A stretch of DNA of 64,000 nt from a virus. Location of the stretch: IMG/VR virus record IMGVR_UViG_3300029787_004704, positions 43,869-107,868 of that record; one strand, written 5' to 3'. The notes below the pieces were generated by a model. That model was not told the DNA's origin and ran no database searches. It worked only from the letters and a program-made list of their open reading frames with translations. Of this stretch, positions 14,260 to 34,230 are shown one piece after another (position 1 is the first letter of the stretch; every line of letters begins with the position of its first letter). The position numbers and the translations under genes are program-made.

Positions 14260-16668
14260 ATGAAGATTATCCAAGGACAGGAAAAAGTAATTCTACGAGC
14301 AGTTTCGCCGGACGGGGGAACTACATCAGGAGATTTGTTAACAGCTTTTGCAGAAGATAGTGGCACAACAGGTATTAGAATTTCCAATCTAGAAGTAGAA
14401 ACACAAACAACACTTAACAGCACAACAACCACAATTGAAGATTCGTTTTTAGAAGTAAACAGAAATAATTCAACAGCAGACAGTGAAGATTCAGGAATAT
14501 TTTTCAATAGAGGATCTGTTGATCATGCACTATTATATTGGGACGCAGGTGATGATAATTTTGTAGTAGGGACTACAACACATGAATCAACAGTAACAGC
14601 AATTTCAAATGTTACTCTCGGACAACTCAAAGTTGCCACAACCCCAAGTCATGCAAATCATGCCGCAAGTAAAAGTTATGTTGATTCAAAAACAATCACA
14701 GTAGCAGGAGACAACAGTGCGGCTATCACAATAGATTTTGATGATGCAGAATTAGTATTATCAGGAGGAACTAGTATAACCACTGCCACCACAGCAGGAG
14801 GTAACGCTTTTGAGATAAGTGTTGATGCCGCAATGACAGGAATCAACTCAATAACATCAGCCTCGGCTGAAAATATTACATTAGTAGCACAAAGTAATTT
14901 GATTGTGATCGACGATACAATCACATTTAATTCACAATTAGCATCAGATCCAAGTGCGGCAAGCATTGCCAAACTGTATGCTAAATCTCCTTCAATAGGC
15001 GGCACAGGATTATACGTAATTCATAGTGGTGTCAATGGTGGCGAATCGACAGAGATTATGGGTCAAACAAGTAACAATCTAGTTGTGTTTGGAGATGACT
15101 CAACTACAATGGAAATTTTGATTCCAGATGTTCCTTTGACTGTAAGTGGAGGTAACAGCATAACAACTTCTACTTCAAGTACACAAACTTTGACAGTAGC
15201 ATTAGACAATCAGATTTTTGTAAATGAAATATCATCAAACGACTCAACAGGCGTTACTCTCAAGGATGATTTATTATTAGCAGGAACGTTGAGAGCCGAA
15301 GATTCTACTAACATAAGTGTTGATGGAGGTATGCAGATTAGTGGTGTGGTTACTGGATTAACTATAGAAGCAACAGGTGACACAGCGGCCAATGACAATG
15401 CCGCAATGGGATATACAGCCGCAGAAGGTTTGATATTGACTGGACAAGGATCTACAAATGATGTAACAATTAAAAATGATGCTGATGCTGATGTAATTGA
15501 AATACCAACTGGTACAACCAATGTAACTATTGCAGGAACACTAGGAACAGGTGGATCTATTACTGCTACAGGCTCATTCATAATTGGCTCAGCTGACATG
15601 AACGAGGCCGACCTTGAAAAATTAGACGGAATCACAAACGGTACAGTAGCGGCATCCAAAGCAGTTGTTGTAGATGCAGACAAAGATGCATCAGGATTTA
15701 GAAACGTTACAGCAACTGGTTCATTCATAATTGGCTCAGCTGATATGAACGAAACTGATCTAGAAAAACTAGACGGAATCACAAACGGCACAGTGGCGGC
15801 AAACAAAGCAGTTGTAGTTGATGCCTCGAAAGACATCGGCACATTTGGAACAATTACTGGCAGTGCTTTAGTAGTTGAAACTATATCTTCAGCAGACTCA
15901 ACCAGTGTATTTTTTAATGATGGGATTACCATAGCAGGCTCGATCAAAGCAGATGATTCTGCTACAATTAATATTGATGATGGACTTGACGTCGAAGGTG
16001 CTGTAACTTTAGGTTCAACAGTATCGCTAGGTGACACTATGAGTATACCTGATTCTGTCAAAATATTGTTTGGTACAGGTAATGATTTAGAAATTTTCCA
16101 TGATGGTACTGATAGTGTTATTAAAGATGGCGGAGCTGGCTCACTTGAAATTAGAGCCACAGATTTAAAAATTAACAACAGTGCTAACAATCACAATATG
16201 ATCAAAGCAATTGATGGTGGTACTGTTGAACTTTATCATAATAATGTTAAAAAAATAGAAACCACTGCTACTGGCGTCACAGTGACAGGCGGAATAACAT
16301 CTTCAGGGGCAACCATAATGACACCAGTAGATGATTTAGCAACATCAACCACTGCTTTGTCATTGACTGCAACAGTTCATTCACTTGCAGTAGGTGAAGC
16401 CAATTACACTTTGGCCGCAGGTACAGAAGGACAAATTATGCACTTTGTGATTGCAGGCGGCGACTCTGTGATAGGTAATGTTGCAAACACAACTGTGACA
16501 ATATCTCAGGTTAGAGACCCAGATGATGGAGATGTGTTGGCCACTTATGCATGGAGTCCATTTATAGGAAATCAAGCAGGCGATTCAACAACACCTAAAC
16601 GTACACTGGCAACCTGTGTGTTTGCCAATGGTGCTTGGAACCTAGATCAATATAACGATATCACATAA
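14260..16668 (+). CDS. Virion fibre / structural protein
   Basis: 802 aa, S/T/G/A/D-rich; shares the LEKLDGITNGTVAA.KAVVVD repeat with the downstream giant fibre. Confidence 0.75.
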   Translation: MKIIQGQEKVILRAVSPDGGTTSGDLLTAFAEDSGTTGIRISNLEVETQTTLNSTTTTIEDSFLEVNRNNSTADSEDSGIFFNRGSVDHALLYWDAGDDNFVVGTTTHESTVTAISNVTLGQLKVATTPSHANHAASKSYVDSKTITVAGDNSAAITIDFDDAELVLSGGTSITTATTAGGNAFEISVDAAMTGINSITSASAENITLVAQSNLIVIDDTITFNSQLASDPSAASIAKLYAKSPSIGGTGLYVIHSGVNGGESTEIMGQTSNNLVVFGDDSTTMEILIPDVPLTVSGGNSITTSTSSTQTLTVALDNQIFVNEISSNDSTGVTLKDDLLLAGTLRAEDSTNISVDGGMQISGVVTGLTIEATGDTAANDNAAMGYTAAEGLILTGQGSTNDVTIKNDADADVIEIPTGTTNVTIAGTLGTGGSITATGSFIIGSADMNEADLEKLDGITNGTVAASKAVVVDADKDASGFRNVTATGSFIIGSADMNETDLEKLDGITNGTVAANKAVVVDASKDIGTFGTITGSALVVETISSADSTSVFFNDGITIAGSIKADDSATINIDDGLDVEGAVTLGSTVSLGDTMSIPDSVKILFGTGNDLEIFHDGTDSVIKDGGAGSLEIRATDLKINNSANNHNMIKAIDGGTVELYHNNVKKIETTATGVTVTGGITSSGATIMTPVDDLATSTTALSLTATVHSLAVGEANYTLAAGTEGQIMHFVIAGGDSVIGNVANTTVTISQVRDPDDGDVLATYAWSPFIGNQAGDSTTPKRTLATCVFANGAWNLDQYNDIT

Positions 16669-16726
16669 TATCCCCCATAATAGATAACCCGGCCAACGAG
16701 TTGCTTTGGATTAAATACACTCATAC

Positions 16727-19700
16727 ATGACCAAACAACGTATTCAAATAGGTGCTATTAACTCTGGATCCGGCGATACCTTAAGAGCCGCGATGATAAA
16801 AATCAATAACAACTTTGATGAGTTGTATGATTTACAGGGACAAGACTCTAGTGGTCAGGGCATTGATATAAATGGAAACACAATCACATCAAATTTTGAA
16901 GACACTGACATAACATTATCACCAAACGGCACAGGTGACATTGTAATGGATGGTGATCTTGTTGTTACTGTTATAAAATCAGATGATTCTACAGAAGTTA
17001 AAATAAGTGATTCATTGAACGTCACAGGCACAGTGACAGCAACAGCATTTGTTGGTGATGGATCAGGACTTACAGGAGTAAGTGGTAGTGGTGGTGGCGG
17101 CGGTGACTCTACAGAAGTTTACACAAATATTTTAAGATCAAATGACTCCACTGCTATCCAAGTTGCAGACAATTTAGTACCAACAGCAGATGACACTTTC
17201 AGTTTAGGTACAGCAGACAAAAAATGGTCAGCAGTGCATGTTTCCGGAGGCACTATATTCTTAGGAAACTTACAGATCAAAGATTCAGGATCAAATTCAT
17301 TACAAATTTTAAGGTCAGACGGGTCTACTACGGCGGCAGTTGAATCTACAAGCACAACATTGAATGTTGTAGGTGATGACTCCACTGACATGGAAATTGT
17401 AGTTGGCACAGATAGATTACATTTCCAAGGTGGCACAAACATTGAAACATCCACAGACAGTGGTGCACAACTTACAATATCTACAAGTAACACTCCAACA
17501 TTCAGTGGCACAGTCACAGCAGGTGGATTAACAATTGGATCAGCAGTAATTAATGAAGCAGAACTAGAAACTATTGATGGTGTCACAGCAGGCACTGTGG
17601 CAGCTTCCAAAGCAGTGATTGTTGATGCCAACAAAGACGCGGCATCATTTAGAAACATTACTGCCACTGGTGCAGTAACAGGTGGCTCTTTTGTAATTGG
17701 ATCTGCAGACATTAGTGAAGCAGATCTAGAAAAACTAGATGGAATAACAAATGGAACTGCCGCGGCAAATAAAGCAATAGTAGCTGATGGCAACATTGAT
17801 GTTACTGCAATTAGAAATCTTACACTAACAGGAAACATACAGGTTGGTGGCGACATGACTGTGAGTGGCACAACTACATCAGTCAACACAACAAATTTAG
17901 AAATATCAGATGCACTATTAGAACTAAACAAAAATAACTCAGGTGGTGCAGATACTGATGCTGGACTATTAATACAAAGAGGATCTGCAGGCAACAATGC
18001 CGCGTTTTATTGGAATGAAGGTGCTGACAAATTCAAAGCAGTATTAACCACATCGGCAGCCACAGCAAGTGCAGTCACTGACTCAAGCACAGCAACCATT
18101 GTTGCAAATCTTGAAGGAGCAGTAACAGGCAATGCCGACACAGCAACAGCTTTAGCCACAGCAAGGAATATTGGTGGTGTTAGTTTTGACGGTACTGGAA
18201 ATATAAATTTACCTGGTGTAAACACTGCCGGTGACCAAGACACAAGTGGAACTGCCGCAATAGCAACTAAGATTATAGTAACTGATAACGAAAGTACAAA
18301 TGAAAATAATGTAATTTTGTTTGCGTCTAGCGTAGGTGATTCGAGTACTGCAAGTGGAAGTGGCGTAGAATCTGATGGTAACATGACATACAATCCCAGC
18401 ACAGGCAAAATCACTGCTACTGGATTTATAGGTGCTGTAACTGGTGATGTTACAGGTGATGTTACAGGTAATGCCGACACAGCAACAGCTTTAGCCACAG
18501 CAAGAACAATAGGTGGTGTGTCATTTGATGGCACAGGAAATATTAACTTGCCAGGAGTTAACACTGCTGGTAACCAAAATACAAGTGGAACAGCCGCGAT
18601 AGCAACCCTTGTAACAGTAACTGACAACGAAAACACAAATGAAGAAAATGTTGTTACATTCGTTGCTGGTGCAGATGCAGATGGTGGCAATGTTGGCCTT
18701 GAGTCAGATGGAAACTTTACATATAATCCAAGCACAGGGGCAGTAACAGCAACAAAATTCAAAGGTGATGGATCAGAACTTACTGGAATAAGCGGTGGTG
18801 GTGGATCAAGCACATTGAACGTTGTTGGTGATGATTCAACTGACATGGAAATTACGCTTGGAACAGATAGATTATATTTCCAAGGTGGCACAAATATTTC
18901 AACGTCAACAGACAGTGGGGCACAACTAACAATTACTGTTGCTGATGCTCCAACATTTAGTGGTGCAGTCACTGCCGCTGGATTTACAATAGGCAGTGCC
19001 GCTATTAACGAATCGGAACTTGAAACAATTGATGGTGTCACAGCAGGTACTGTGGCCGCAAGTAAAGCTGTCGTAGTTGACTCGAACAAAGATGCAACAG
19101 GATTTAGAAACGTTACAGGCACAGGAGATGTCGAAGGTGCAAGTTTAACTGTTACAAGTGGCGTTGCCATTACAGCATCAAGTGGCGATGTTACTGTTGC
19201 GAATGCAACATCAAATAAAGATTTAATATTCACAGTAAATGATGGTGGCTCTGCTACTGAGGTAATGAGATTAGATGGTGATGTGTCAGCATTATTAGTG
19301 GCGTCTGGGAAAGAATTGAGATTTGCAGACTCCGGAGAAAAAATATCAGGTGACGGCACTGACTTAACCATTGCATCAGGAGCCAAAATAAACCTAACAG
19401 CAACATCGGATGTTGTTGTTCCAGCTAACGTAGGAATTACATTTGGCACTGGCGAAAAAATTGAAGGCGACAACACAGACTTAACTATTACTTCAGGTGC
19501 TAAAATTAATTTGGCAGCTACTTCAGATGTACATATTCCAAATGATGTTGGTATTGTGTTTGGTGGAGATTCAGAAAAAATTGAAGGAGATGGAACGGAC
19601 TTAGTCATATCTGCAAATAATTTAACAGTTGACGCGGCCGCTGATATAATTTTAGACGCAGGTGGCAATGACTTCCAATTCAAAGCAGGTGGCACTCACA

Positions 19701-22700
19701 TATTAAGCATTGTGAATTCATCTAGTGATGTCATAATCAAACCTATCGCTGATGCAAAAGATATAATATTGCAACAAAGAGATGGCACAGAAGTTGCTCG
19801 CGTTGAAGACAACGGAACATTCAATATTGTCACAGACAAATTAGCAATAAATGGCACAGCGGTTACATCAACTGCCGCAGAGTTAAATTTTGTTGATGGC
19901 AGTACAGCAGGCACTGTGGTGGCATCTAAAGCAGTGGTTGTCGATTCAAACAAAGATGCTGGAGACTTCCGTAACTTAACTGGAGTAACTTTAAAAGGAA
20001 CAACTTCATTACAAACACCATTGATTGAATTCACTGATGGCGACAATGCAATTACTATTGCAAATGGAGGTGGTATTACTGCTAATACAAGTTTAACATT
20101 GGCAAGTGGTGCAACTGTTACAGCAATACTTGATGAAGATAATTTTGCATCAGATTCTGACACTGCATTGGCAACACAACAATCAATCAAAGCATACGTT
20201 GGATCACAAACAGGATCATCAATCAGTATGAGAGTTGCTGGTTCATCAGATTCAACACAGGCAAACATTGATTTATCAAGCAATGAAGAATTCAGATTAA
20301 TTGGTGGCAACAGTATTACAACAACCATAGGTAGCACTGCTGACAACACAATGACTGTGGCACTGGATGATAATATTGCAATAGATGAACTCAGTGCTAA
20401 AGATTCATCGAATATCCAAATTAAATCACCTATACTTGCTGACAGTACAATAACTTCAGGAGCAATCACATCTTCAGGTGTTGTCACAGCAACTGGATTT
20501 ACTATTGGATCTGCCGCAATAAATGAAACAGAACTAGAAACTATCGATGGCATCACAGCAGGTACAGTTGCCGCGTCGAAGGCGGTCATTGTAGATTCAA
20601 ATAAAGATGTTACTGGTTTTAGAAATGTTACCGGCACAGGTGATGTTGAAGGTGCAAGTTTAACAGTTTCAAGTGGTGTGGCAATAACTGCATCAAGCGG
20701 TGATGTCACAGTTGCTAACGCAACTTCAGACAAAGATTTAATATTCACGGTTAATGATGGTGGCTCGGCTACTGAAGTGTTTAGACTTGATGGTGATGTA
20801 TCAGCTATGTTGATAGCATCAGGAAAAGAATTAAGATTTGCTGACTCAGGAGAAAAAATATCAAGTGATGGTACAGACTTAACTATCGCATCCGGTGCCA
20901 AAATTAATCTAGGAGCAACATCAGATGTTCATTTAGCCAACGATATTGGATTGGTGTTTGGTGATGCTGGTGAAAAAATTGAAGGTGATGGTACGGACTT
21001 AACCATTACAGGTAACAATATTAAATTGACTGCCACAGCAGATGTAGTGATACCGGCCAACGTTGGAATCACGTTTGGTACAGGAGAAAAAATTGAAGGT
21101 GACAGCACAGACTTAACTGTGACTTCAGGTGGGAAGATAAATTTAACAGCAACATCAGATGTTCATATTCCAAATGATGTTGGTATTGTGTTTGGTGATG
21201 CGGCAGAAAAAATTGAAGGTGACGGAACAGACTTAACCATAACAGGAAACAATATTAAATTAACTGCCGCGGCTGATATTGTTGTGCCGGCTAATGTTGG
21301 AATTACATTTGGCACCGGCGAGAAAATTGAAGGCGATAGTACAGATTTAACTGTCACATCCGGAGCAAAAATTAATCTTAATGCAACTTCTGATATTCAC
21401 ATTCCAAATGATGTTGGTATTGTATTTGGTGGCGCATCGGAAAAAATTGAAGGTGATGGCACAGACCTAGTCATATCAGCAAACAACTTGACTGTAGATG
21501 CCGCGGCCGACATAATACTTGATGCAGGTGGCAATGACTTCCAATTTAAAGCAGGCGGAACGCATATATTAAGTGTAGTGAATTCGTCAAGTGACGTAAT
21601 AATTAAACCAATTGCTGACGCAAAAGATATCATATTCCAACAAAGAGATGGCACAGAAGTTGCAAGGGTAGAAGATAATGCAACATTCAATGTTGTAACT
21701 GGTAAACTGGCAATTAATGGCACAGCAATTACATCAACGGCCGCTGAACTTAACCTAGTTGACGGCATCACAGCAGGAACAGTATCTGCCAGTAAGGCAG
21801 TAATTGCTGACTCTAATAAAGATGCATTAGGATTTAGAAATATTTCAGCAACGGGTACCGCTGAGATAGGCGGTGATTTACAAGTTGGCGGAAACTTCAC
21901 AGTATCTGGAACAACTACATCAGTTAATACAACCAACATAGAAATCCAAGACGCATTGTTAGAATTAAACAAAAATAACTCAGGTGGTGCTGATGTTGAT
22001 GCTGGAATATTCATACAACGTGGTTCGGCAGGTAACAATGCAGTATTATATTGGAATGAAGGAGATGACACATTTAAAGCAGTGTTGTCCAACTCAGTTG
22101 CAACTGCTGACGCAGTAACAGATTCGTCTTTTGCAGGATTAGAAGTAGGATCGCTCACTGTAAACGCTGGAGTGGCAATCACAGCATCGAGTGGTGATGT
22201 TACTGTTGCTAATGCAACATCAAATAAAGATTTAATATTCACTGTAAATGATGGTGGTTCAGCAACAGAAGTAATGAGACTAGATGGAGATGTATCGGCT
22301 ATACTAGTTGCATCAGGAAAAGAATTAAGATTTGCTGACTCAGGAGAAAAAATATCAGGTGATGGTACAGACTTAACCATTGCATCAGGGGCTAAAATTA
22401 ATTTATCAGCAACTTCAGATGTTGTTATACCAGCAAACGTAGGAATAACATTTGGTGATGGTGAAAAAATTGAAGGTGATGACACAAACATTACAGTCAC
22501 TTCAGGTGGCGCAATCAACTTAACTGCAACAACAGATGTTGTTGTACCTGCCAATGTTGGAATTACATTTGGTACAGGTGAAAAGATTGAAGGCGACAAC
22601 ACAGACTTAACTGTGACTTCAGGTGCTAAAATTGTATTAGCGGCAACAAGTGATGTTGAAATACCAGCAAATGTAGGAATAACATTTGGTACAGGAGAAA

Positions 22701-25700
22701 AAATTGAAGGTGACAATACAGACTTAACTATCACGTCGGGTGCTGACATAACCTTGGCGGCAACAGCAGATGTTAACATACCAGTCAATGTTGGCCTACG
22801 TCTAGGTGATGGTGGTGAGAATATCGAAACAGATAACACAGATTTAACAATTACTTCAGGTGGAAAAATTAATTTAGCAACTGCTTCAGATGTACACTTA
22901 GCCAACGATAAAGGAATAGTGTTTGGTGATGCCGGTGAGAAAATTGAAGGTGATGGCACCGACTTAACTATATCGTCAAGTGCAAAATTAAATTTAACAG
23001 CATCATCAGATGTACACATTCCAAAAAACATAGGATTAGTTTTTGATGATAATGCTAGTGAAAAAATTGAATCAGATGATACAGATTTAACTATTGCATC
23101 AGGTGCCAAAATTAATTTAAATGCAACTTCAGATGTTCACATTCCAAATGATGTAGGAATAGTATTTGGCGGTGCTTCTGAAAAAATTGAAGGTGATGGA
23201 ACTGACTTAGTCATATCAGCTAACAACTTGACTGTTGATGCGGCAGCTGATATTATACTTGACGCTGGTGGCAATGACCTTCAATTTAAAGCAGGTGGCA
23301 CACATGTCTTGAGTATTACAAATTCATCCAGTGATGTTATCATTAAACCAATTGTAGATGCAAAAGATATTATATTCCAGCAAAGAGATGGAACAGAGGT
23401 TGCTCGTATTGAAGACAATGCAACATTTAATGTTGTCACAGGCAAGTTAGCAATCAATGGCACAGCAATTACATCAACTGCCGCTGAACTAAATGCACTA
23501 GATGGCATTACTGCTGTTGTTGGTGAACTTAATGCTCTGGATATAGGTAGTACCGCTGTTGGAACTGCTGTTGCATCTAAGGCAGTGATACTAGATTCAA
23601 ATAAAGATTATACTGGCATAAGAAACTTAACTACAACTGGTTCATTCATAATTGGTAATGCGGACATGAATGAAACTGATCTAGAAAAACTAGATGGTAT
23701 CACAAACGGAACTGTGGCAGCTAACAAAGCAGTTGTTGTTGATGGTGACAAAGACGCTGGTTCATTTAGAAATATTACAGCAACAGGTACAGTAACCACA
23801 GCAATACTGGATGTAAACTCAATTAAATCAACTGATTCATCTAACATACGTATTGATGAAGGCCTTGATGTAGTAGGTGGATTATTCCTTTCAGAAATAA
23901 ATTCAATAGATTCAAGTGCAATTGAAGTAAATGAAGTTACTAATTTCAATGCAAACGTAGTTGTCAAAGCAGATGTAACAACAACTGGTTCATTTATTAT
24001 TGGCTCAGCGTCAATGAATGAAACTGATTTAGAAAAATTAGATGGCATTACAAATGGTGCTGGTGCGGCAAACAAAGCATTGGTGTTAGATGGAAGTGCT
24101 GATGTGGCATCTGGCTTAAGAAACTTAACAGCAAGTGGCACTATTACAGGTGGCACAATCACATTAGATGGAGGATTTTCGGCAACAGAATCAAGTGGTG
24201 ATGTCACAGTTGCTAATGCAACATCAAACAAAGATTTAATATTCACTGTAAACGACGGTGGCTCTGCTACTGAAGTGTTTAGACTTGATGGTGATGTGTC
24301 AGCACTACTAGTTGCGTCTGGGAAAGAATTGAGATTTGCTGATTCAGGCGAAAAAATATCAGGTGATGGCACAGATTTAACTATTGCATCAGGAGCCAAA
24401 ATTAATTTAACTGCCACTTCAGATGTTGTTGTACCAGCAAACGTAGGAATAACATTTGGTACAGGTGAGAAGATTGAAGGTGATAACACTGATCTTACAA
24501 TAACATCAGGTGCAAAAATTAATTTAGCCGCAACATCAGATGTTCACATTCCAAATGATGTTGGTATTGTGTTTGGTGGTGATTCAGAAAAGATCGAAGG
24601 TGATGGCACTGACTTAGTCATATCAGCAAATAACCTCACAGTGGATGCCGCGGCTGACATTATACTTGATGCCGGTGGCAATGACTTCCAATTCAAAGCA
24701 GGCGGCACTCACATATTAAGTGTAGTAAACTCATCCAGTGATGTTATTATTAAACCAATTGTAGATGCAAAAGATATTATATTCCAACAGAGAGATGGAA
24801 CAGAAGTTGCTCGTGTAGAAGACAATGGTACGTTCAATGTTGTTACCAGCAAGTTAGCAATAAACGGTACAGCAATTACTTCAACGGCCGCTGAACTAAA
24901 TGCACTAGATGGCATTACTGCTGTTGTTGGCGAACTTAATGCACTAGACCTTGGCAGCACAGCAGTTGGAACTGCTATTGCATCCAAAGCTGTTATTTTA
25001 GATTCAAACAAAGATTATACTGGGTTAAGAAACGTCACACTATCAGGTGAACTTGATGCAGGAAGTTTAGATATATCAGGTGATGCTGACATAGACGGTA
25101 CTTTAGAAACAGACGCATTAACAATTGGCGGCACTGCTATCGCAGATGTAATTGCAGGAACCACAGTCAACCTTGCCACACTAGCGTCAACTGTCACTAT
25201 TACAGACAACGAATCAACCAATGAAAACAATGCTTTAGTCTTTACTGCCGGCGGCGATACAGATGGTGGTAACCTTGGATTAGAATCAGATGGTACATGT
25301 ACATACAATCCAAGCACAGGTAAAATAACTGCCACAGGATTTGTAGGTGACTTAACAGGAACGGCATCTGCCGCTCAATACTCTGACTTGGCAGAACGTT
25401 ATCATGCTGATGCTGTGATGGAAAAAGGTGACATTGTTGAGATAGGTGGCGAAAATGAAATTACTAAGTCTACACAAGCAGTAAGTCCAGATGTGTTTGG
25501 TGTAATATCTCATGAGGATCAAGCGGCATTTAAAATGAATGACGGACTTCCTGATGATACTCACCCACTAGTGGCACTAACTGGAAGAGCAGATGTAAAA
25601 GTGATAGGACCAATCAACAAAGGCGACAGACTTGTCACATCATCTACACCAGGCGTTGCACGTAAGGCATTGATGTCTGAATGCACAGCATTTACAGTAA

Positions 25701-25774
25701 TTGGTAGAGCGTTACAAGATAAAACAACAGAAGATATTAGCGTTGTTTTATGTTATGTGAACGCAAAATCTTAA
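16727..25774 (+). CDS. Giant repetitive tail fibre with C-terminal intramolecular-chaperone (peptidase G2-like) domain
   Basis: N-terminal GDTLRAAMIKINNNFDELY baseplate-attachment motif; about 20 EKIEGDGTDL repeats; C-terminal AQYSDLAERY...VALTGR...KGDRLVTS. Confidence 0.85.
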   Translation: MTKQRIQIGAINSGSGDTLRAAMIKINNNFDELYDLQGQDSSGQGIDINGNTITSNFEDTDITLSPNGTGDIVMDGDLVVTVIKSDDSTEVKISDSLNVTGTVTATAFVGDGSGLTGVSGSGGGGGDSTEVYTNILRSNDSTAIQVADNLVPTADDTFSLGTADKKWSAVHVSGGTIFLGNLQIKDSGSNSLQILRSDGSTTAAVESTSTTLNVVGDDSTDMEIVVGTDRLHFQGGTNIETSTDSGAQLTISTSNTPTFSGTVTAGGLTIGSAVINEAELETIDGVTAGTVAASKAVIVDANKDAASFRNITATGAVTGGSFVIGSADISEADLEKLDGITNGTAAANKAIVADGNIDVTAIRNLTLTGNIQVGGDMTVSGTTTSVNTTNLEISDALLELNKNNSGGADTDAGLLIQRGSAGNNAAFYWNEGADKFKAVLTTSAATASAVTDSSTATIVANLEGAVTGNADTATALATARNIGGVSFDGTGNINLPGVNTAGDQDTSGTAAIATKIIVTDNESTNENNVILFASSVGDSSTASGSGVESDGNMTYNPSTGKITATGFIGAVTGDVTGDVTGNADTATALATARTIGGVSFDGTGNINLPGVNTAGNQNTSGTAAIATLVTVTDNENTNEENVVTFVAGADADGGNVGLESDGNFTYNPSTGAVTATKFKGDGSELTGISGGGGSSTLNVVGDDSTDMEITLGTDRLYFQGGTNISTSTDSGAQLTITVADAPTFSGAVTAAGFTIGSAAINESELETIDGVTAGTVAASKAVVVDSNKDATGFRNVTGTGDVEGASLTVTSGVAITASSGDVTVANATSNKDLIFTVNDGGSATEVMRLDGDVSALLVASGKELRFADSGEKISGDGTDLTIASGAKINLTATSDVVVPANVGITFGTGEKIEGDNTDLTITSGAKINLAATSDVHIPNDVGIVFGGDSEKIEGDGTDLVISANNLTVDAAADIILDAGGNDFQFKAGGTHILSIVNSSSDVIIKPIADAKDIILQQRDGTEVARVEDNGTFNIVTDKLAINGTAVTSTAAELNFVDGSTAGTVVASKAVVVDSNKDAGDFRNLTGVTLKGTTSLQTPLIEFTDGDNAITIANGGGITANTSLTLASGATVTAILDEDNFASDSDTALATQQSIKAYVGSQTGSSISMRVAGSSDSTQANIDLSSNEEFRLIGGNSITTTIGSTADNTMTVALDDNIAIDELSAKDSSNIQIKSPILADSTITSGAITSSGVVTATGFTIGSAAINETELETIDGITAGTVAASKAVIVDSNKDVTGFRNVTGTGDVEGASLTVSSGVAITASSGDVTVANATSDKDLIFTVNDGGSATEVFRLDGDVSAMLIASGKELRFADSGEKISSDGTDLTIASGAKINLGATSDVHLANDIGLVFGDAGEKIEGDGTDLTITGNNIKLTATADVVIPANVGITFGTGEKIEGDSTDLTVTSGGKINLTATSDVHIPNDVGIVFGDAAEKIEGDGTDLTITGNNIKLTAAADIVVPANVGITFGTGEKIEGDSTDLTVTSGAKINLNATSDIHIPNDVGIVFGGASEKIEGDGTDLVISANNLTVDAAADIILDAGGNDFQFKAGGTHILSVVNSSSDVIIKPIADAKDIIFQQRDGTEVARVEDNATFNVVTGKLAINGTAITSTAAELNLVDGITAGTVSASKAVIADSNKDALGFRNISATGTAEIGGDLQVGGNFTVSGTTTSVNTTNIEIQDALLELNKNNSGGADVDAGIFIQRGSAGNNAVLYWNEGDDTFKAVLSNSVATADAVTDSSFAGLEVGSLTVNAGVAITASSGDVTVANATSNKDLIFTVNDGGSATEVMRLDGDVSAILVASGKELRFADSGEKISGDGTDLTIASGAKINLSATSDVVIPANVGITFGDGEKIEGDDTNITVTSGGAINLTATTDVVVPANVGITFGTGEKIEGDNTDLTVTSGAKIVLAATSDVEIPANVGITFGTGEKIEGDNTDLTITSGADITLAATADVNIPVNVGLRLGDGGENIETDNTDLTITSGGKINLATASDVHLANDKGIVFGDAGEKIEGDGTDLTISSSAKLNLTASSDVHIPKNIGLVFDDNASEKIESDDTDLTIASGAKINLNATSDVHIPNDVGIVFGGASEKIEGDGTDLVISANNLTVDAAADIILDAGGNDLQFKAGGTHVLSITNSSSDVIIKPIVDAKDIIFQQRDGTEVARIEDNATFNVVTGKLAINGTAITSTAAELNALDGITAVVGELNALDIGSTAVGTAVASKAVILDSNKDYTGIRNLTTTGSFIIGNADMNETDLEKLDGITNGTVAANKAVVVDGDKDAGSFRNITATGTVTTAILDVNSIKSTDSSNIRIDEGLDVVGGLFLSEINSIDSSAIEVNEVTNFNANVVVKADVTTTGSFIIGSASMNETDLEKLDGITNGAGAANKALVLDGSADVASGLRNLTASGTITGGTITLDGGFSATESSGDVTVANATSNKDLIFTVNDGGSATEVFRLDGDVSALLVASGKELRFADSGEKISGDGTDLTIASGAKINLTATSDVVVPANVGITFGTGEKIEGDNTDLTITSGAKINLAATSDVHIPNDVGIVFGGDSEKIEGDGTDLVISANNLTVDAAADIILDAGGNDFQFKAGGTHILSVVNSSSDVIIKPIVDAKDIIFQQRDGTEVARVEDNGTFNVVTSKLAINGTAITSTAAELNALDGITAVVGELNALDLGSTAVGTAIASKAVILDSNKDYTGLRNVTLSGELDAGSLDISGDADIDGTLETDALTIGGTAIADVIAGTTVNLATLASTVTITDNESTNENNALVFTAGGDTDGGNLGLESDGTCTYNPSTGKITATGFVGDLTGTASAAQYSDLAERYHADAVMEKGDIVEIGGENEITKSTQAVSPDVFGVISHEDQAAFKMNDGLPDDTHPLVALTGRADVKVIGPINKGDRLVTSSTPGVARKALMSECTAFTVIGRALQDKTTEDISVVLCYVNAKS
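19180..25030 (+). repeat. Four nested coding repeat super-modules in the fibre gene
   Basis: Each starts SSGDVTVANATS.KDLIFTVNDGG and ends DIIFQQRDGTEVAR, containing 3, 6, 8 and 3 copies of a ~37-38-aa unit. Confidence 0.85.
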
Positions 25775-26208: not shown

Positions 26209-27702
26209 TTAAAATGTGATAGACCAAGTTCCTGGCTCGTAAAATCCTTCATATGATTTTACCCAAATAGACCCAGTCCATTTGTATTGAATTCCAGTTG
26301 TTACATTGGTAACATATTGCACTCTGGTAAAGGAACTGTCACCATTAACCATGCCAGCAGTGCTGTCAACAAAAGTTGATGAATCTAATAATCCAAGACC
26401 TAGTTGAGTTGAATCATCTGAGTTAGCGTTAAAATCTACAATCCATTCAGTACCAACTTTTTCTATAATATCATTTGCTTGTGCAACAAGACTTCCCCAT
26501 GGTGTGGTTTTATTTGCATCAAGAGTTGTTGAACTTCCTATATCATCTGTAAGCAGATATCTTGTGCCTGCAACGTCATTGGTTGCATTATATGTCTGAG
26601 GATTAATTACAGCATCAACGGCATTGATAGTATTTGTTGGAGTAGTGTCTTCATCTATTGTAATTAACATTGTTAATTCATCTTGCGGATCTAGTGCGAT
26701 AGTGCCAGTCACTTCAACAATAATATCATCACCATTTATAGTCGTGGCTGATTGTTGTAACTGTATTGTTGATAATCCGCCTCTAAATTGTTTAGAGTAC
26801 AATGATTCTAGTTGTAACCAATTGGTGCGATTTCCATGCGTTGTATCTTGTTTGAATGCTTCATTATTTTTGTTATTCATGTGTCGTGTGTCGTTGCCCA
26901 TTTGACTCAACAATGTTACTCTATTACCCAATACTAACAATCCATATTGTCCTGGAGTAACAAACTGTCTTGAAATTAAACTTTCACCTAATATACCATC
27001 CACGTCAACTGTGCCTGCTTCTTCATCATATATACTCATGATAATTTTTTCTATTACACCTAATTTTTTTAGTTTGGCAGGTGGTGAAATAAAAATTGGT
27101 GTTCTAAAATCTAGTGTTGCTACATCAATATCATCAGCAATTCCGGCCGGGATTGCCCTTGACGAAAAGTTTATGTTGGTAAGTTCTACAAATGACAATG
27201 AAGTCCAATCTAAAAAATTATCAGTAGTTTGCAATTCAAGTGCTGGATTGAATAATACTAAAATTTGTTCTAGTATTTGCAGTTTTTGATCTGTGTTGGT
27301 TGAAAAAATATCAGCTCTAAACGACAGTTCAAATGGTGTAGGCATAATTCTCTCAATGGTATGAGCCTGTCCAGGCTGTGCTGTGTATGTTTGTGTAGCA
27401 TCATCGAACTGTCTTTCGCGAATATGTTTTTTATCAATGTGATATGGATTATACATTCTTTCTCTATCATATCTCATATCTGTAATATAACAAGAAATTT
27501 GTGGTGCTGGAATTAAAGTATTCTCAGATCCTTTTCTGATAATCTGTGCTACCTGTTTACTCATGTCGCCATATTTGACAGGCACTTGCAAAGTTTCAGA
27601 CACGCCCTTAGAGTTTTTACCAGTCACATAAGAAAAATTACTCATCATGCGTATGAATTGTAAAATGTATCTTCTTATTTGAGCATCGTAAAAATGTTGC
27701 AT
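26209..27702 (-). CDS. Tail sheath stabiliser / completion protein (gp15-like) with C-terminal extension
   Basis: FYDAQIRRYILQF...VPVKYG...QILEQILVLFNP. Confidence 0.85.
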   Translation of the reverse strand: MQHFYDAQIRRYILQFIRMMSNFSYVTGKNSKGVSETLQVPVKYGDMSKQVAQIIRKGSENTLIPAPQISCYITDMRYDRERMYNPYHIDKKHIRERQFDDATQTYTAQPGQAHTIERIMPTPFELSFRADIFSTNTDQKLQILEQILVLFNPALELQTTDNFLDWTSLSFVELTNINFSSRAIPAGIADDIDVATLDFRTPIFISPPAKLKKLGVIEKIIMSIYDEEAGTVDVDGILGESLISRQFVTPGQYGLLVLGNRVTLLSQMGNDTRHMNNKNNEAFKQDTTHGNRTNWLQLESLYSKQFRGGLSTIQLQQSATTINGDDIIVEVTGTIALDPQDELTMLITIDEDTTPTNTINAVDAVINPQTYNATNDVAGTRYLLTDDIGSSTTLDANKTTPWGSLVAQANDIIEKVGTEWIVDFNANSDDSTQLGLGLLDSSTFVDSTAGMVNGDSSFTRVQYVTNVTTGIQYKWTGSIWVKSYEGFYEPGTWSITF

Positions 27703-27703
27703 C

Positions 27704-28886: not shown

Positions 28887-28894
28887 TATAAATA
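28887..28894 (+). promoter_or_regulatory. T4-type late promoter TATAAATA (divergent partner TAAATA at 28862-28867 on the minus strand)
   Basis: Exact consensus 5 nt upstream of ATG 28900. Confidence 0.7.
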
Positions 28895-28899
28895 GTAGT

Positions 28900-29685: not shown

Positions 29686-29714
29686 TTGACACATCACACA
29701 TATTATTGTATAAT
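29686..29714 (+). promoter_or_regulatory. Sigma70 consensus promoter
   Basis: TTGACA-N17-TATAAT, 6 nt upstream of ATG 29721. Confidence 0.8.
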
Positions 29715-29720
29715 GTGAGC

Positions 29721-30673: not shown

Positions 30674-30786
30674 GCATATATTTATAAGCACCTTTCCGGT
30701 GCTCTTTAAATATGGCAATTTTGAGTATATAAATCAGTCCTAATAGGTAAATATTCATAACGAATGTTTTTAAGGAGTAAAACAAA

Positions 30787-33700
30787 ATGGCATTAACATC
30801 ACCAGGAGTAGAGGTATCCGTAGTAGACGAAAGTTTTTACGTCCCCGGTATACCAGGAGCAGTACCACTAGTTGTAGTTGCAACTGCTCAAGACAAAACA
30901 TCAGGTACAGGTAGCGGCACAGCATCTGGTACACTGAGCGGCAACGCAAACGAAATATTTTTAATATCGTCACAGAGAGAATTAACTCAAACGTTTGGCG
31001 ATCCAACATTTTACACAGACGCATCAGGAACACCTATACAAGGTTATGAACTGAATGAATATGGCCTCCAAGCGGCTTACTCCTTCCTTGGAATTGCCAA
31101 CAGAGCGTTTGTGATTAGAGCGAACATTGACACTTCAGAATTAACCGGATCAGCAGATGCACCTGGTGGCACACCTAATGATGGTTTTTATTGGTTAGAC
31201 CTAGCAAGTACAAACTGGGGAATCAAAGAGTGGAGTGAATCAACACAATCATTTACATCAAAAACACCAATCTTTATCACATCAACTGATGATGTGACTG
31301 GTTCACCTGCGGCACCTATTGCGGCAAAAGGATCAATTGGTGATTACGCGATTGTGGCAACAAATCCTTTCAATAGATTATTTTACAAAACAAGATCAAA
31401 CACTTGGGTAAGAGTTGGATCAGCTGATTCAGCTACAAAAGATGCATCATGGTCATCATCACATCCGATAGTGACAGGAACAGCAACGAATCCGACAATA
31501 ACAAATTCAGAATCAGTTACAATTAACGGAAGCACTGTTTCATCACTAGGTACAACTGTGGCAACATTTGCATCAGCAATTAACAGTGAAGGCATTGAAG
31601 GTGTACAAGCGGCAGCTGTCGATGGAAAACTAGAAATATATGCGATTCCAGTAGCGTCAGGCGGAGACTCATCATCTTTGGCAGTAGGTGCTGTTGAATT
31701 AGATGAAGCTTCAGGAACACCTTTTGCAGATGCCGGAATAGCAGTAGGCACAGCAAACAGATTGTTTCCACCAAAAGTTTTCATAGGAACACACACTGAA
31801 GACTTTGGTTTCAGATCTGGAGATACTAGATCAAGACCAAGTGGATCTGTTTGGATACAACAAACAGCACCAAACAGTGGAGCAACCATATCAGTTAAAA
31901 AATATTCAGAAACTAATGGACAATTTGAATCAGTAAATGCACCTGTGTTTAAAACACACGAACAGGCATTACAACAACTTGATAAAGCAGGTGGCGGTTC
32001 AAACCTTACAGTGAATGATGTAATGGTACAAGTTAACACTACTGAAGATGAATGGGGCGATTCAACTAGAGATTCAGGCGAATTGATAGATTATGTTTTA
32101 TTCAGAAGAGCAGTTGGAATTGGATCAAAAACAAATATTACCTCAAATAAAATTACAACAAAAGCATCTGCAATTACAGCCACTGGTACTGTACGTATGG
32201 CAGAGACTATGGTCAACAATGCTACACAAACAAACAGTCTTTCAAATTTATTAAATGAAAAAACTGTAAGTGTAAGTGGTACAGATGCTGATGATGTTGT
32301 AGCTGGAATACAAGCGGCAGGATTTAAACATGTGTCAGCATCATATGACGCGACTACAAAAAGAATCACTGTATCCCATGACAAAGGTGGAAACATTTAC
32401 TTTACAGATACTTCCAACAATCCAATGGGTGACTTAGGATTTAATTCTACATTTGCAAACACTTACGGTGACAACACAAGCCTAAGTGCAGAGAAAATTG
32501 CAAACTTGTACACAGCGCCAACAGGTGACAAAGATGACTATTCAACAATCACAAGTAGTGATGGATTTTCATTTGTGGCATCCAATTGGCAACCAGTACA
32601 AAACACACCAGACTCAGGCACTACTTACACAGCAATACAAAGTGTAAATGAGCCATCAAAAGATCCGGCTAACAATCAACTTTGGTACAATACAACTGTT
32701 GATGAAGTAGATATTTTGATACATGATGGATCAGCATGGACAGGATACCAAAACGTATCATCAGATGCTAGAGGATTCAATTTAGCAAATACAGATCCAA
32801 AAGGTCCACAGGTTGTTGCAACTGAACCAACTACACAGTCAGATGGTACAGCACTAGTAGACGGCGATCTTTGGTTGAATACATCAGATTTAGAAAATTA
32901 TCCAAAACTTTACAGATATGATTCATCACAAGATAATGGGCAAGAGTGGGTGTTAATTGACAACACAGACCAATCAGGACAGGACGGAATACTGTTTGCA
33001 GACTTTAGATTCCATACAGATCAATCTAAAGATGTAGTAACTGAAGAGTCTTTGATTACTGACTTGTTAACATCAACTTACACTGATATTGATGCACCAA
33101 CATCGGCTTTATATCCAAAAGGAATGTTAGGATTTAATCTAAGACGTTCTGGATACAATGTTGCTAGATTCAAAAAAGATTACTTCACAAGAACTAACTT
33201 TGCAAGTGTTGTAACATATCCAGATCTACCTACAGAAAAAGATGCATGGGTTTCTGAATCACCATTGAAAACAAATGGTGCACCAAACATGGGTAGGAAG
33301 GCACAGAGAGCAGTTGTTGTAGAAGCATTGAAATCAACAGTAGCATCTACCACAGCACTAAGAGAAGAACAAAGAGAATTTAACTTGTTGGCAGCTCCGG
33401 CGTATCCAGAGTTAATTCAAGATTTAGAAACTCTTAATGCAGACAGAAAAGACACAGCATTTGTTGTTGGAGATACTCCATTCAGATTAGAAGCAACTTC
33501 AACTGCGGTTACAAACTATGCAAACAACACAGCAGGTGCGGCAGACAACGGAGAAGATGGACTGTTAACTACAGATTCATTCACTGGCGTTTATTATCCT
33601 TCAGGATTTACAACTGCTAACAGCGGTGAATCAGTTGCTGTTCCGGCTTCACACATGATGCTGAGAACGATTGCATTTAATGACCAAGTAGCATTTCCAT

Positions 33701-34230
33701 GGTTTGCACCAGCAGGTATAAGACGTGGTAAAGTTGACAATGCATCATCAGTTGGATTTATTAACTCTGAAGGTGAGTTTGAAACTACACAGGTGTCAAA
33801 TGGATTGAGAGATTCACTTTACAGTGTAAACATTAACCCAATATCATTTGTGACAGGTGCAGGACTTACTGTATTTGGACAAAAAACAAGACAACTTACA
33901 GCATCAGCACTTGACAGAGTGAATGTTGCTAGACTAGTTGCATTTGTTAGATTGAACTTAGATAAAATTGCAAGACCATTTATCTTTGAACCAAATGATA
34001 CACTTACTAGAAATGAAATCAAACAATCAGTTGAGTCATTCTTGTTAGAATTAACTTCACAGAGAGCATTGTTTGACTTTGCTGTTGTGTGTGATGAAAC
34101 TAACAACACACCTGGCAGAATTGATAAGAATGAATTGTATGTTGATGTAGCCATAGAGCCAGTCAAAGCAGTTGAGTTTATCTTCATTCCAGTAAGATTG
34201 AAAAACACAGGAGAAATTGGCGCCCTTTAG
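30787..34230 (+). CDS. Tail sheath protein (gp18-like), long form
   Basis: LTSPGVEV, PWFAPAG.RRG, SALDRVNVARL, FEPND..TR, IEPVKAVEFI. Confidence 0.95.
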   Translation: MALTSPGVEVSVVDESFYVPGIPGAVPLVVVATAQDKTSGTGSGTASGTLSGNANEIFLISSQRELTQTFGDPTFYTDASGTPIQGYELNEYGLQAAYSFLGIANRAFVIRANIDTSELTGSADAPGGTPNDGFYWLDLASTNWGIKEWSESTQSFTSKTPIFITSTDDVTGSPAAPIAAKGSIGDYAIVATNPFNRLFYKTRSNTWVRVGSADSATKDASWSSSHPIVTGTATNPTITNSESVTINGSTVSSLGTTVATFASAINSEGIEGVQAAAVDGKLEIYAIPVASGGDSSSLAVGAVELDEASGTPFADAGIAVGTANRLFPPKVFIGTHTEDFGFRSGDTRSRPSGSVWIQQTAPNSGATISVKKYSETNGQFESVNAPVFKTHEQALQQLDKAGGGSNLTVNDVMVQVNTTEDEWGDSTRDSGELIDYVLFRRAVGIGSKTNITSNKITTKASAITATGTVRMAETMVNNATQTNSLSNLLNEKTVSVSGTDADDVVAGIQAAGFKHVSASYDATTKRITVSHDKGGNIYFTDTSNNPMGDLGFNSTFANTYGDNTSLSAEKIANLYTAPTGDKDDYSTITSSDGFSFVASNWQPVQNTPDSGTTYTAIQSVNEPSKDPANNQLWYNTTVDEVDILIHDGSAWTGYQNVSSDARGFNLANTDPKGPQVVATEPTTQSDGTALVDGDLWLNTSDLENYPKLYRYDSSQDNGQEWVLIDNTDQSGQDGILFADFRFHTDQSKDVVTEESLITDLLTSTYTDIDAPTSALYPKGMLGFNLRRSGYNVARFKKDYFTRTNFASVVTYPDLPTEKDAWVSESPLKTNGAPNMGRKAQRAVVVEALKSTVASTTALREEQREFNLLAAPAYPELIQDLETLNADRKDTAFVVGDTPFRLEATSTAVTNYANNTAGAADNGEDGLLTTDSFTGVYYPSGFTTANSGESVAVPASHMMLRTIAFNDQVAFPWFAPAGIRRGKVDNASSVGFINSEGEFETTQVSNGLRDSLYSVNINPISFVTGAGLTVFGQKTRQLTASALDRVNVARLVAFVRLNLDKIARPFIFEPNDTLTRNEIKQSVESFLLELTSQRALFDFAVVCDETNNTPGRIDKNELYVDVAIEPVKAVEFIFIPVRLKNTGEIGAL

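What the first reader, a model, noticed from the sequence alone, without database searches (positions are those of the whole stretch)
14260..34230. D-S-[S/T] motif concentrated in exterior virion proteins: candidate phage-encoded O-glycosylation system
Seen: the tripeptide DST/DSS recurs in the 802-aa fibre (GDDST, SNDST, AEDST, SADST, AGDST) and in the 3015-aa fibre (GQDSS, SDDST, GGDST, SNDST, VGDDST x2, VTDSS x2, VGDSS, SSDST, AKDSS, LADST, STDSS, SIDSS). It also occurs in insertions of the sheath (GGDSS, WGDST, YDSS). A ~30-aa stretch of the gp15 extension carries four copies (SDDSTQLGLGLLDSSTFVDSTAGMVNGDSSF, ~26330-26425). The motif is scarce in the capsid and replication proteins. The window also encodes about 8 glycosyltransferase-like genes plus sugar-modifying enzymes. 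Established: D-(S/T)-x is the acceptor sequon of Bacteroidetes protein O-glycosylation, and some phages glycosylate their virions. Inference: the phage decorates its tail and fibres at a dedicated D-S-S/T sequon using its own glycan pathway.
Basis: partly seen in the sequence, partly recalled or inferred. Interest (0 to 1): 0.8.

Follow-up and report, generated by a model that had tools for sequence, protein, structure and literature searches.

The report
Conserved Asp-Ser-Ser/Thr motif on phage fibres
A marine T4-like giant phage carries a conserved Asp-Ser-(Ser/Thr) motif on its fibres, its neck protein and one fast-evolving protein, next to about ten sugar-transferase genes; this fits a virus-made sugar coat, but the sequence alone cannot prove it.

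Summary
DS[ST] occurs 30 times against 8.0 expected in four proteins: the 802-aa fibre, the 3015-aa fibre, the gp15 neck protein and a 308-aa protein upstream of the window. The other 115 ORFs of the contig have 14 against 14.5.

The excess is specific to this residue order, survives local shuffles, and is the only xy[ST] pattern significant in all four proteins. It is selected at protein level.

Sites are conserved in orthologues while flanks drift. In gp15 they sit in a low-confidence loop that has gained DS[ST] units. Cultured relatives keep the domain without the motif.

In the fibres the motif is the near-invariant turn of a repeated roughly 20-25-aa beta-hairpin module, so a structural role is a strong rival there.

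The sheath is not enriched. The motif is not the Bacteroidota sequon.

About six GT-like genes lie in the window and about ten on the contig. One sits among the head genes, and its model best matches the flagellin glycosyltransferase Maf (Z 14.2).

Co-occurrence of motif and GT genes across six related genomes is weak.

Verdict: a real, lineage-specific short linear motif. Phage-encoded O-glycosylation is the leading explanation (about 40%) but is unproven.

The parts
14260..16668 (+). 802-aa modular fibre with 5 DS[ST] sites. Three sit in beta-hairpin module A (aa 328, 348, 546), one in module B (GDDST, aa 280) and one in the C-terminal domain (aa 775).
   Evidence: Orthologue L008 keeps 4 of 4 alignable sites at 70% identity. 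Metagenome orthologues have 238 vs 70 expected. It shares a fibre domain (aa 573-667) with cyanophage and roseophage fibres that have 0-1 DS[ST].
16727..25774 (+). 3015-aa giant fibre with 16 DS[ST] sites. The N-terminus weakly resembles the T4 gp10 N-terminus. It has nineteen EKI-containing copies of a ~39-40-aa repeat and four ~430-670-aa super-repeats.
   Evidence: Orthologue L006 has 13 vs 2.6 and keeps 6 of 6 sites in well-aligned regions at 51% identity.
26209..27702 (-). gp15-like tail sheath stabiliser (497 aa) with an added C-terminal beta domain.
   Evidence: PF16724 and phrog_11196. AlphaFold model m96dce817eb63.
26329..26415 (-). gp15 loop aa 430-458 carrying four DS[ST] units.
   Evidence: pLDDT <50 and no secondary structure between strands 419-424 and 463-466. 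The number of units varies from 0 to 4 among about 120 homologues while the spacers vary. The motif is absent from the same hairpin in Phosso, PA5oct, Atu_ph07, SCTP-2 and Vibrio 2.275.O. Local shuffle gives 4 vs 0.25.
30787..34230 (+). Tail sheath (1147 aa). Its 3 DS[ST] sites lie in variable insertions and are not above chance.
   Evidence: 3 vs 1.55, p=0.19. Alignment with three orthologues.
9443..10303 (+). Maf/GT42-like (sialyltransferase-fold) glycosyltransferase candidate between the portal and prohead genes. It has a ~75-aa helical N-terminal extension.
   Evidence: Paralogue of contig 36009-36689 (E 9e-10). The family profile hits Cst-I, Cst-II and Lst at E about 1e-4. The AF2 model has pLDDT 83. 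VIA gives Z 14.2 to Maf 5MU5 and Z about 10.5 to Cst-II. It is syntenic in 33 of 80 related loci and lies next to gp15 in G001 and G004.
310..942 (-). GT25-family glycosyltransferase. It is the last gene of the glycan operon that runs upstream of the window.
   Evidence: PF01755 E 1.4e-13. Upstream operon.
51193..52765 (-). Two paralogous genes resembling capsule-synthesis (KpsS/KpsC-like) transferases.
   Evidence: ESM Atlas feature score 0.97 to viral clusters named capsule polysaccharide biosynthesis, with PF05159 in 18% of one cluster. There is no Pfam, PHROG or PDB sequence hit, so this is a lead only.
52747..53541 (-). GT-A-like nucleotide-sugar transferase candidate with an LDADVV motif. 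It is a paralogue of contig 39214-40005.
   Evidence: Alignments. Atlas 0.96 to GT8/Nucleotid_trans clusters. No PDB sequence hit, so this is a lead only.
56484..57194 (+). Glycosyltransferase of phrog_14945. A second copy lies at contig 40624-41307.
   Evidence: Among the six compared genomes it is shared only with G003.
46152..55276 (.). Sugar-modifying genes: DegT-like aminotransferase (short, 222 aa), radical SAM, 2OG-Fe(II) oxygenase, AsnB-type amidotransferase and a weak IspD-like cytidylyltransferase.

Best explanation
DS[ST] is a lineage-specific short linear motif. It is displayed at beta-turns and flexible loops of surface proteins of this marine T4-like jumbo phage.

The carriers are two modular fibres, the outward C-terminal domain of the neck protein gp15, and a fast-evolving 308-aa protein of unknown place.

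It most likely serves as the acceptor site for a phage-encoded post-translational modification. The leading candidate is O-glycosylation of a Ser/Thr in the host cytoplasm by the phage's own soluble glycosyltransferases, during or after assembly.

Candidate enzymes are the Maf/GT42-like protein kept inside the head or neck gene module, and the roughly ten GT-like proteins of the glycan islands.

In the fibres the site is the turn of a repeated strand-turn-strand module. This arrangement recalls the strand-loop-strand sites heptosylated in AIDA-I-type autotransporters (from my own knowledge).

Shown: the enrichment, its order-specificity, protein-level conservation, the loop location in gp15, lineage restriction, the presence and fold of the GT candidates and their synteny with structural genes.

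Inferred: that any residue is modified, which enzyme does it, which sugar is used, and what the coat does (shielding, stability or adhesion).
For: - Four proteins have 30 vs 8.0 expected; the rest of the contig has 14 vs 14.5.
- DS[ST] is the only xy[ST] pattern significant in all four proteins. Permuted orders are not comparably enriched, and DT[ST] is depleted.
- Codons at the motif are mixed TCN and AGY, so selection acts on the protein.
- Ten of 12 alignable fibre sites are kept in orthologues at 51-70% identity, against 22-44% for identical triples in general.
- The p308 family (30 members, 27-100% identity) keeps four DS[ST] sites while the spacers between them change completely. The protein evolves much faster (73-87% identity) than its neighbours (94-99%).
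- The gp15 loop is low-confidence coil, has grown by adding DS[ST] units, and lacks the motif in five cultured relatives with the same domain.
- Related complete or large genomes show no genome-wide excess: G001 56 vs 58, G004 31 vs 31.5. The motif is therefore not a general property of these fibres.
- The Maf-like fold match has Z 14.2, and the gene's synteny with structural genes is conserved.
- The contig carries a glycan operon and GT-like genes.
- Virions of XacN1, a jumbo phage whose paper places it with Atu_ph07 and SCTP-2, showed at least two glycoproteins (PMC5852040).
Against: - There is no direct evidence of modification.
- In the fibres the motif is nearly invariant within a repeat module. 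A flank-only HMM finds 111 units, of which 102 are DS[ST], 5 DSA, 3 NS[ST] and 1 DSG. That is what a structural turn would look like.
- Some orthologous swaps destroy the motif: DST to NSA, DDSS to DGST, DDST to DGST or DDGST.
- All six compared genomes carry the Maf-like gene, but only G000 is strongly DS[ST]-rich. G003, G002 and G005 share much of the glycan island yet score 1.06-1.17 overall.
- The head proteins encoded beside the Maf-like gene carry no DS[ST].
- No NeuB-type ulosonic acid synthase was found on the 108 kb held, which is 26% of the genome.
- The GT islands could equally serve DNA modification or remodelling of the host surface.
Confidence: 0.4

Rival explanations
1. The motif is purely structural. 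D-S-[S/T] would be a turn or strand-cap (Asx/ST-turn), or a metal-coordinating element, of a short beta-hairpin repeat. The repeat spread by duplication and module shuffling among marine phage fibres. The same turn-former would have been reused in the gp15 hairpin and in p308, with no modification.
For: - Module A consensus is L.V.EI.S.DS[ST].[IV].[IV]N[DE]GL.V.G, in tandem arrays of 18-25 aa.
- 92% of flank-defined units carry DS[ST], and the exceptions are conservative.
- The motif is almost always followed by an alternating hydrophobic pattern.
- In the 40-aa repeat the middle residue of D-x-T varies among G, N, S and D, as in a plain turn.
- DG[ST] is also enriched in p3015 (24 vs 7.1).
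- Correlation with GT content is weak.
Against: - The same gp15 fold exists without the motif in five cultured phages.
- In gp15 the motif sits in a low-confidence, length-variable loop.
- In p308, sites 3 and 4 lie in acidic stretches of variable sequence without a strand pattern, yet are conserved down to 27-30% identity.
- Fibres of related genomes, and cyanophage fibres sharing other modules, have none.
- The strict preference for Ser over Thr at position 2 (DT[ST] 0.27x) is unusual for a generic turn.
Confidence: 0.35
2. The motif is recognised in trans, but not for glycosylation. Possibilities are phosphorylation or another hydroxyl modification, docking of an assembly chaperone, or a shared adhesion or ion-binding function towards the host surface or seawater cations.
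For: The pattern is that of a short linear motif: conserved triplets in variable flanks, across unrelated proteins, restricted to one lineage. Acidic residues next to Ser/Thr are typical of many kinase motifs (from my own knowledge).
Against: No Pfam or PHROG match to a protein kinase appeared among the contig ORFs that I scanned. The whole contig was not scanned and no kinase family was searched for. GT-like genes are abundant, and one is embedded in the structural module.
Confidence: 0.15
3. The excess is an artefact of composition or of internal repeats. D/S/T-rich, repetitive proteins would give a post-hoc 'motif' by chance.
For: p3015 is extremely repetitive, and many tripeptides are more enriched than DS[ST]. 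Some sites are copies of each other. The sheath count is at chance level.
Against: - Whole-protein, block-40 and local shuffles all reject this.
- Order controls reject it.
- The unbiased scan of 200 patterns singles out DS[ST].
- The signal appears independently in non-repetitive gp15 and p308 and in their homologue families.
Confidence: 0.05

Closest known systems
Virion O-glycosylation of mycobacteriophages by phage-encoded glycosyltransferases (Freeman et al. 2023, cited in PMC12619734)
   Same: Phage-encoded GT genes are associated with structural genes. The proposed target is exposed virion protein, modified in the cytoplasm before release.
   Different: There the glycans sit on C-terminal ends of capsid and tail-tube subunits. 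Here MCP and tube carry no DS[ST], the carriers are fibres and a neck protein, a defined tripeptide is proposed, and nothing is shown experimentally.
Maf flagellin glycosyltransferases and GT42 sialyltransferases (PDB 5MU5; Cst-II 1RO7)
   Same: The protein of 9443-10303 shares the central fold (Z 14.2 and 10.5) and weak profile similarity. Maf enzymes O-glycosylate Ser/Thr of a surface filament protein in the cytoplasm.
   Different: The phage protein has only the central domain plus a short N-terminal extension. The Pfam MptE-like match is below cut-off. No nonulosonic acid synthase was found on the held contig. Maf has no known strict sequon. The donor and acceptor here are unknown.
General O-glycosylation of Bacteroidota at D-(S/T)-(A/I/L/V/M/T) (PMC8550257)
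   Same: An Asp immediately precedes a hydroxyl residue in a three-residue motif.
   Different: That system works in the periplasm on exported proteins. Here the wider pattern is not enriched, DSS does not fit it, Thr at position 2 is avoided, and the host is unknown.
Heptosylation of AIDA-I/TibA autotransporter repeats, and glycosylation of staphylococcal Ser-Asp repeats (from my own knowledge)
   Same: Soluble GTs modify Ser in repeated strand-loop-strand or Asp-Ser units of surface fibre-like proteins.
   Different: I did not look for a homologue of those enzymes. Their repeat sequences differ from the ones here.
Glycoproteins in virions of jumbo phage XacN1 (PMC5852040)
   Same: XacN1 is a jumbo myovirus whose paper lists it alongside Atu_ph07 and SCTP-2, which are gp15 relatives here. 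Glycoprotein staining showed at least two virion proteins, and it encodes its own GTs.
   Different: The sites, proteins and motif were not identified. XacN1 itself was not examined here.

Membership tests
Bacteroidota general O-glycosylation sequon | Acceptor motif D-(S/T)-(A/I/L/V/M/T) | tested here: not met
   D[ST][AILVMT] counts are p3015 14 vs 28.5, p802 12 vs 7.9 (p=0.09) and gp15 4 vs 2.7. Twelve of 30 sites are DSS. DT[ST] is 3 vs 10.9.
Bacteroidota general O-glycosylation sequon | Substrates are exported and modified in the periplasm of a Bacteroidota host | not testable with these tools
   The host is unknown. One genome-contig scan with the symporter found no relative. By established phage biology, virion proteins assemble in the cytoplasm.
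Maf / GT42 (CMP-ulosonic acid transferases) | Central Maf/Cst-II-type fold | tested here: met
   VIA gives Z 14.2, rmsd 3.4 over 174 aa to 5MU5, and Z 10.5 to 1RO7. Foldseek probabilities are 0.87-1.00.
Maf / GT42 (CMP-ulosonic acid transferases) | Sequence-profile membership | tested here: inconclusive
   Profile A2 against PDB hits Cst-I, Cst-II and Lst at E 8e-5 to 7e-4. Pfam PF01973 is below cut-off (E 0.002; 0.08).
Maf / GT42 (CMP-ulosonic acid transferases) | Accompanying CMP-ulosonic acid pathway (NeuB/PseI-type synthase, CMP-sugar synthetase) | tested here: inconclusive
   No NeuB on the 108-kb contig, which is 26% of the genome. There is a weak IspD-like cytidylyltransferase, a DegT-like aminotransferase and dehydratases.
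Maf / GT42 (CMP-ulosonic acid transferases) | Transfers sugar to Ser/Thr of a protein | not testable with these tools
   Needs biochemistry.
Phage virion glycosylation (mycobacteriophage type) | GT genes linked to the structural gene module | tested here: met
   The Maf-like gene lies between portal and prohead genes in 33 related loci and next to gp15 in G001 and G004.
Phage virion glycosylation (mycobacteriophage type) | Glycans on C-terminal extensions of capsid and tail-tube subunits | tested here: not met
   MCP (13008-14183) and tube (34291-34911) have no DS[ST]. Whether they are modified elsewhere is unknown.
T4 gp15 tail sheath stabiliser | PF16724 domain | tested here: met
   E 4.7e-26 over aa 3-229. 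The C-terminal half is an addition shared with PA5oct, Phosso, Atu_ph07 and SCTP-2.

The most novel reading that the evidence does not exclude
An abundant group of marine T4-like jumbo phages would coat the fibres and neck of the virion with sugars. A Maf-like and other phage-encoded cytoplasmic transferases would attach them at a dedicated tripeptide sequon, D-S-(S/T). New sites would arise simply by inserting DS[ST] units into loops or duplicating a hairpin module. This would be the first defined O-glycosylation sequon for a bacteriophage virion.
Probability: 0.3. Interest if true: 0.8.

Novelty: new variant of a known kind. Interest (0 to 1): 0.62.

Why it matters
Few phages are known to glycosylate their virions, and none with a defined acceptor motif. 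A tripeptide that marks the sites would let glycosylated virion proteins be predicted from metagenomes. It would also give a handle on how ocean phages shield or tune their fibres, for example against proteases, grazers, or in host recognition and adsorption. It would assign a function to the many 'auxiliary' sugar genes of marine jumbo phages.

Even if the motif proves structural, it defines a widespread hairpin repeat of marine phage fibres for which sequence searches of the two fibres against solved structures found no match.

Tried and rejected
- **DNA-level cause.** D-S could create GANTC sites, but Ser codons at the motif are 24 TCN and 6 AGY, close to overall usage. Rejected.
- **Global or local composition.** Rejected by whole-protein, block-40 and loop-only shuffles.
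- **Generic property of phage fibres.** Rejected. Three cyanophage and roseophage fibres sharing a domain have 0-1 sites. The complete relative G001 has 56 vs 58 genome-wide.
- **Bacteroidota sequon.** Rejected.
- **Co-occurrence with the Maf-like gene.** It is present in all six genomes regardless of motif load, so this is uninformative. Genes shared only by G000 and G003 (phrog_14945 GT, AsnB, 2OG-Fe, FkbM) track the gp15-loop motif. However, n=6 and this is confounded by relatedness.
- **Sequence searches of the fibres, and of the two unknown GT-like families, against solved structures.** Nothing useful.
- **Host inference by scanning genomes with the phage symporter.** No relative found.
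- **The moraphage paper (PMC12619734).** It describes a different lineage.
- **Two regex attempts to define module A by its flanks.** They failed through register errors and were replaced by a masked HMM.
Full report
**What the window is.** The window is bases 43869-107868 of a 107.9-kb IMG/VR viral contig that CheckV rates 26% complete. That implies a T4-like jumbo phage of roughly 400 kb. Its major capsid protein (13008-14183) is 65-69% identical to those of Phosso, PA5oct and Vibrio phage 2.275.O. No isolate is near at DNA level. Homologues are abundant in marine metagenomes, including Tara.

The region of the finding encodes, in order:
- MCP;
- an 802-aa fibre;
- a 3015-aa fibre, whose first 40 residues weakly resemble the N-terminus of T4 gp10 (E 0.012);
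- a Nudix hydrolase;
- a gp15-type sheath stabiliser with an added C-terminal domain;
- a virion structural protein, an adaptor, dNMP kinase and an HNH endonuclease;
- a 1147-aa sheath and the tail tube.

**The observation.** Against shuffles of each protein, DS[ST] is over-represented in the 802-aa fibre (5 vs 1.5), the 3015-aa fibre (16 vs 5.1) and gp15 (4 vs 0.47). It is not over-represented in the sheath (3 vs 1.55).

Scanning the rest of the contig added one more carrier, a 308-aa protein at contig 12659-13585 (5 vs 0.85). Together these four proteins hold 30 sites against 8.0 expected. The other 115 ORFs hold 14 against 14.5.

Several controls show the excess is not composition:
- Shuffling within 40-residue blocks, or within the gp15 loop alone, keeps it.
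- The five other orders of D, S and [ST] reach only 0.75-2.2x, and DT[ST] is depleted to 0.27x.
- Of 200 patterns of the form xy[ST], only DS[ST] is significant in all four proteins.
- Ser codons at the motif are a mix of TCN and AGY, so selection acts on the protein.

There are caveats. The 3015-aa protein is built of repeats, and many tripeptides are far more enriched there. Two DST sites sit at a variable position of the 40-aa repeat, EGD[G/N/S/D]TDLT. Two pairs of sites are copies within super-repeats.

**Conservation.**
- *gp15.* The motif lies between two conserved strands of the C-terminal domain. Among about 120 homologues this hairpin holds from 0 to 4 DS[ST] units. The units are conserved while the spacers differ, and longer loops are longer by whole units. 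AlphaFold gives the domain pLDDT 76-85, but residues 431-456 score below 50 and have no secondary structure. Five cultured relatives keep the domain and the hairpin without any DS[ST].
- *p308.* In the p308 family (30 members down to 27% identity), four DS[ST] sites persist while the stretches between them change completely. The protein diverges much faster (73-87% identity) than the neighbouring replication genes (94-99%).
- *Fibres.* Ten of 12 alignable sites are kept in orthologues at 51-70% identity, against 22-44% for triples in general. Metagenomic orthologues of the 802-aa fibre hold 238 sites against 70 expected.
- *A further family.* In more distant relatives, a ~140-aa protein encoded just after MCP carries 2-3 DS[ST] at recurrent positions.

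**The structural side.** In the fibres the motif is not free-standing. It is the centre of a ~20-25-residue unit (module A) with consensus L.V.EI.S.DS[ST].[IV].[IV]N[DE]GL.V.G. This unit is often in tandem. A second unit, module B, reads ..VVGDDST.MEI....GGTNITTS.

I built an HMM from the flanks alone, with the three motif columns masked. It finds 111 distinct units, of which 102 have DS[ST], 5 DSA, 3 NS[ST] and 1 DSG. That is what a turn required by the fold would look like, and it is the main reason the structural rival stays strong.

Three points weigh against a purely structural reading:
- The gp15 fold exists without the motif.
- The p308 sites lie in variable acidic stretches without a strand pattern.
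- Related phages lack any excess: the complete 374-kb genome G001 has 56 vs 58, G004 has 31 vs 31.5, and cyanophage and roseophage fibres sharing another domain have 0-1 sites.

The two readings are not exclusive. Strand-loop-strand repeats are themselves the recognised sites in autotransporter heptosylation (from my own knowledge).

**The sugar genes.** Pfam and PHROGs name only two GTs in the window: GT25 at 310-942 and phrog_14945 at 56484-57194. An operon runs from just upstream of the window into its start. It adds:
- two NAD-dependent epimerase/dehydratases;
- FkbM-type and O-methyltransferases;
- a GT8-like GT and another phrog_14945 GT;
- an SGNH protein.

A UDP-sugar dehydrogenase lies separately, about 23 kb further upstream at contig 10731-11891, beside p308.

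Two paralogues at 51193-52765 resemble capsule-synthesis (KpsS/C-like) transferases. The gene at 52747-53541 resembles GT8-type enzymes. Both assignments rest on language-model look-alikes only.

I tested that lead:
- It is a paralogue of an operon gene (E 9e-10).
- Its family profile hits the GT42 sialyltransferases Cst-I, Cst-II and Lst (E about 1e-4).
- Its model (pLDDT 83) aligns best to the flagellin glycosyltransferase Maf (Z 14.2, rmsd 3.4 over 174 residues), then to Cst-II (Z 10.5).
- The gene keeps a place inside the structural module in 33 of 80 related loci. In two genomes it lies next to gp15 instead.

No NeuB-type synthase is on the contig held.

**Co-occurrence.** I compared six genomes of the lineage. 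All carry the Maf-like gene. G002, G003 and G005 share parts of the glycan island, and G001 and G004 lack it.

| Genome | DS[ST] observed/expected, genome-wide |
|---|---|
| G000 | 1.96 |
| G002 | 1.17 |
| G003 | 1.17 |
| G005 | 1.06 |
| G004 | 0.98 |
| G001 | 0.97 |

 Only G000 and G003 have DS[ST] in the gp15 hairpin. Only those two share the phrog_14945 GT, AsnB, a 2OG-Fe oxygenase and FkbM. G003 is also the closest relative, so the trend is weak and confounded.

**Comparison with known systems.** The motif is not the Bacteroidota sequon D-(S/T)-(A/I/L/V/M/T) (PMC8550257). That wider pattern is not enriched, DSS violates it and Thr at position 2 is avoided. That system also acts in the periplasm. 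The nearest precedents are mycobacteriophage virion glycosylation (cited in PMC12619734) and glycoprotein staining of XacN1 virions (PMC5852040). Neither has a defined motif.

**Verdict.** It extends to a further protein of this contig (p308), to a ~140-aa protein family in relatives, and to hundreds of metagenomic homologues.

| Reading | Probability |
|---|---|
| Phage-encoded modification site, most likely O-glycosylation | about 0.4 |
| Purely structural turn or metal site | about 0.35 |
| Another trans-recognised function | about 0.15 |
| Artefact | about 0.05 |

Only mass spectrometry or a structure can settle it.

Noticed in passing
window 9443-10303: A Maf/GT42-fold transferase gene sits between the portal and prohead genes. 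It has a confident ~60-aa helical N-terminal extension (pLDDT 83-95), then a disordered linker. Some relatives have the extension and others lack it. In G001 and G004 the gene lies beside gp15 instead.
   Followed up: yes
L001:12659-13585 (contig coordinates, upstream of the window): A 308-aa protein of unknown function has four conserved DS[ST] sites and a conserved GPGQYD. It evolves much faster (73-87% identity) than the flanking DNA polymerase, helicase and primase genes (94-99%). It has no Pfam or PHROG match and no homologue in G001, G003 or G004.
   Followed up: partly
window 16727-25774: Architecture of the 3015-aa protein: a gp10-like first 40 residues, P1/P7/Goslar-type tail-fibre repeat segments at aa 462-627, nineteen EKI-containing copies of a ~39-40-aa repeat (GEKIEGDxTDLT..KINL.ATSDV.IP..VGI.FG), and four super-repeats starting V[MF]RLDGDVSA at aa ~846, 1351, 1849 and 2517.
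   Followed up: partly
window 57203-58651: A sodium:solute symporter family gene (PF00474, E 2e-17) lies inside the phage sugar/nucleotide island. A membrane transporter is unusual in a phage. No close cellular relative was found in one scan of genome contigs.
   Followed up: partly
window 2176-2946: This protein has a match to the C-terminal domain of arginyl-tRNA-protein transferase (ATE_C, E 1e-5) and to a FemAB-like GNAT domain.
   Followed up: no
L016:12079-12510, L069:11297-11725, L039:6304-6750 and others: In relatives with 75-80% MCP identity, a ~120-150-aa protein starting MGRPI is encoded soon after MCP. It carries 2-3 DS[ST] at recurrent positions, each before a strand-like stretch. 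About 10 of 16 members have DS[ST] at the best-conserved site. I did not see such a protein among the window's ORFs.
   Followed up: partly
window 46152-46820: The DegT/DnrJ/EryC1-type aminotransferase ORF is only 222 aa and matches just the middle of the 360-position family model. It may be truncated or split.
   Followed up: no
window 939-1352 and 30308-30718: Two small endonuclease-like genes: a homing-endonuclease/'NAD synthetase' PHROG hit next to the GT25 gene, and an HNH endonuclease between dNMP kinase and the sheath gene.
   Followed up: no
P0172-P0240 (metagenome fibres sharing modules with 14260-16668): DS[ST] load is bimodal among distant module-sharing fibres. Some carry 8-11 sites where about 2 are expected, and others carry none. 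This offers a natural contrast set for finding the gene that tracks the motif.
   Followed up: partly
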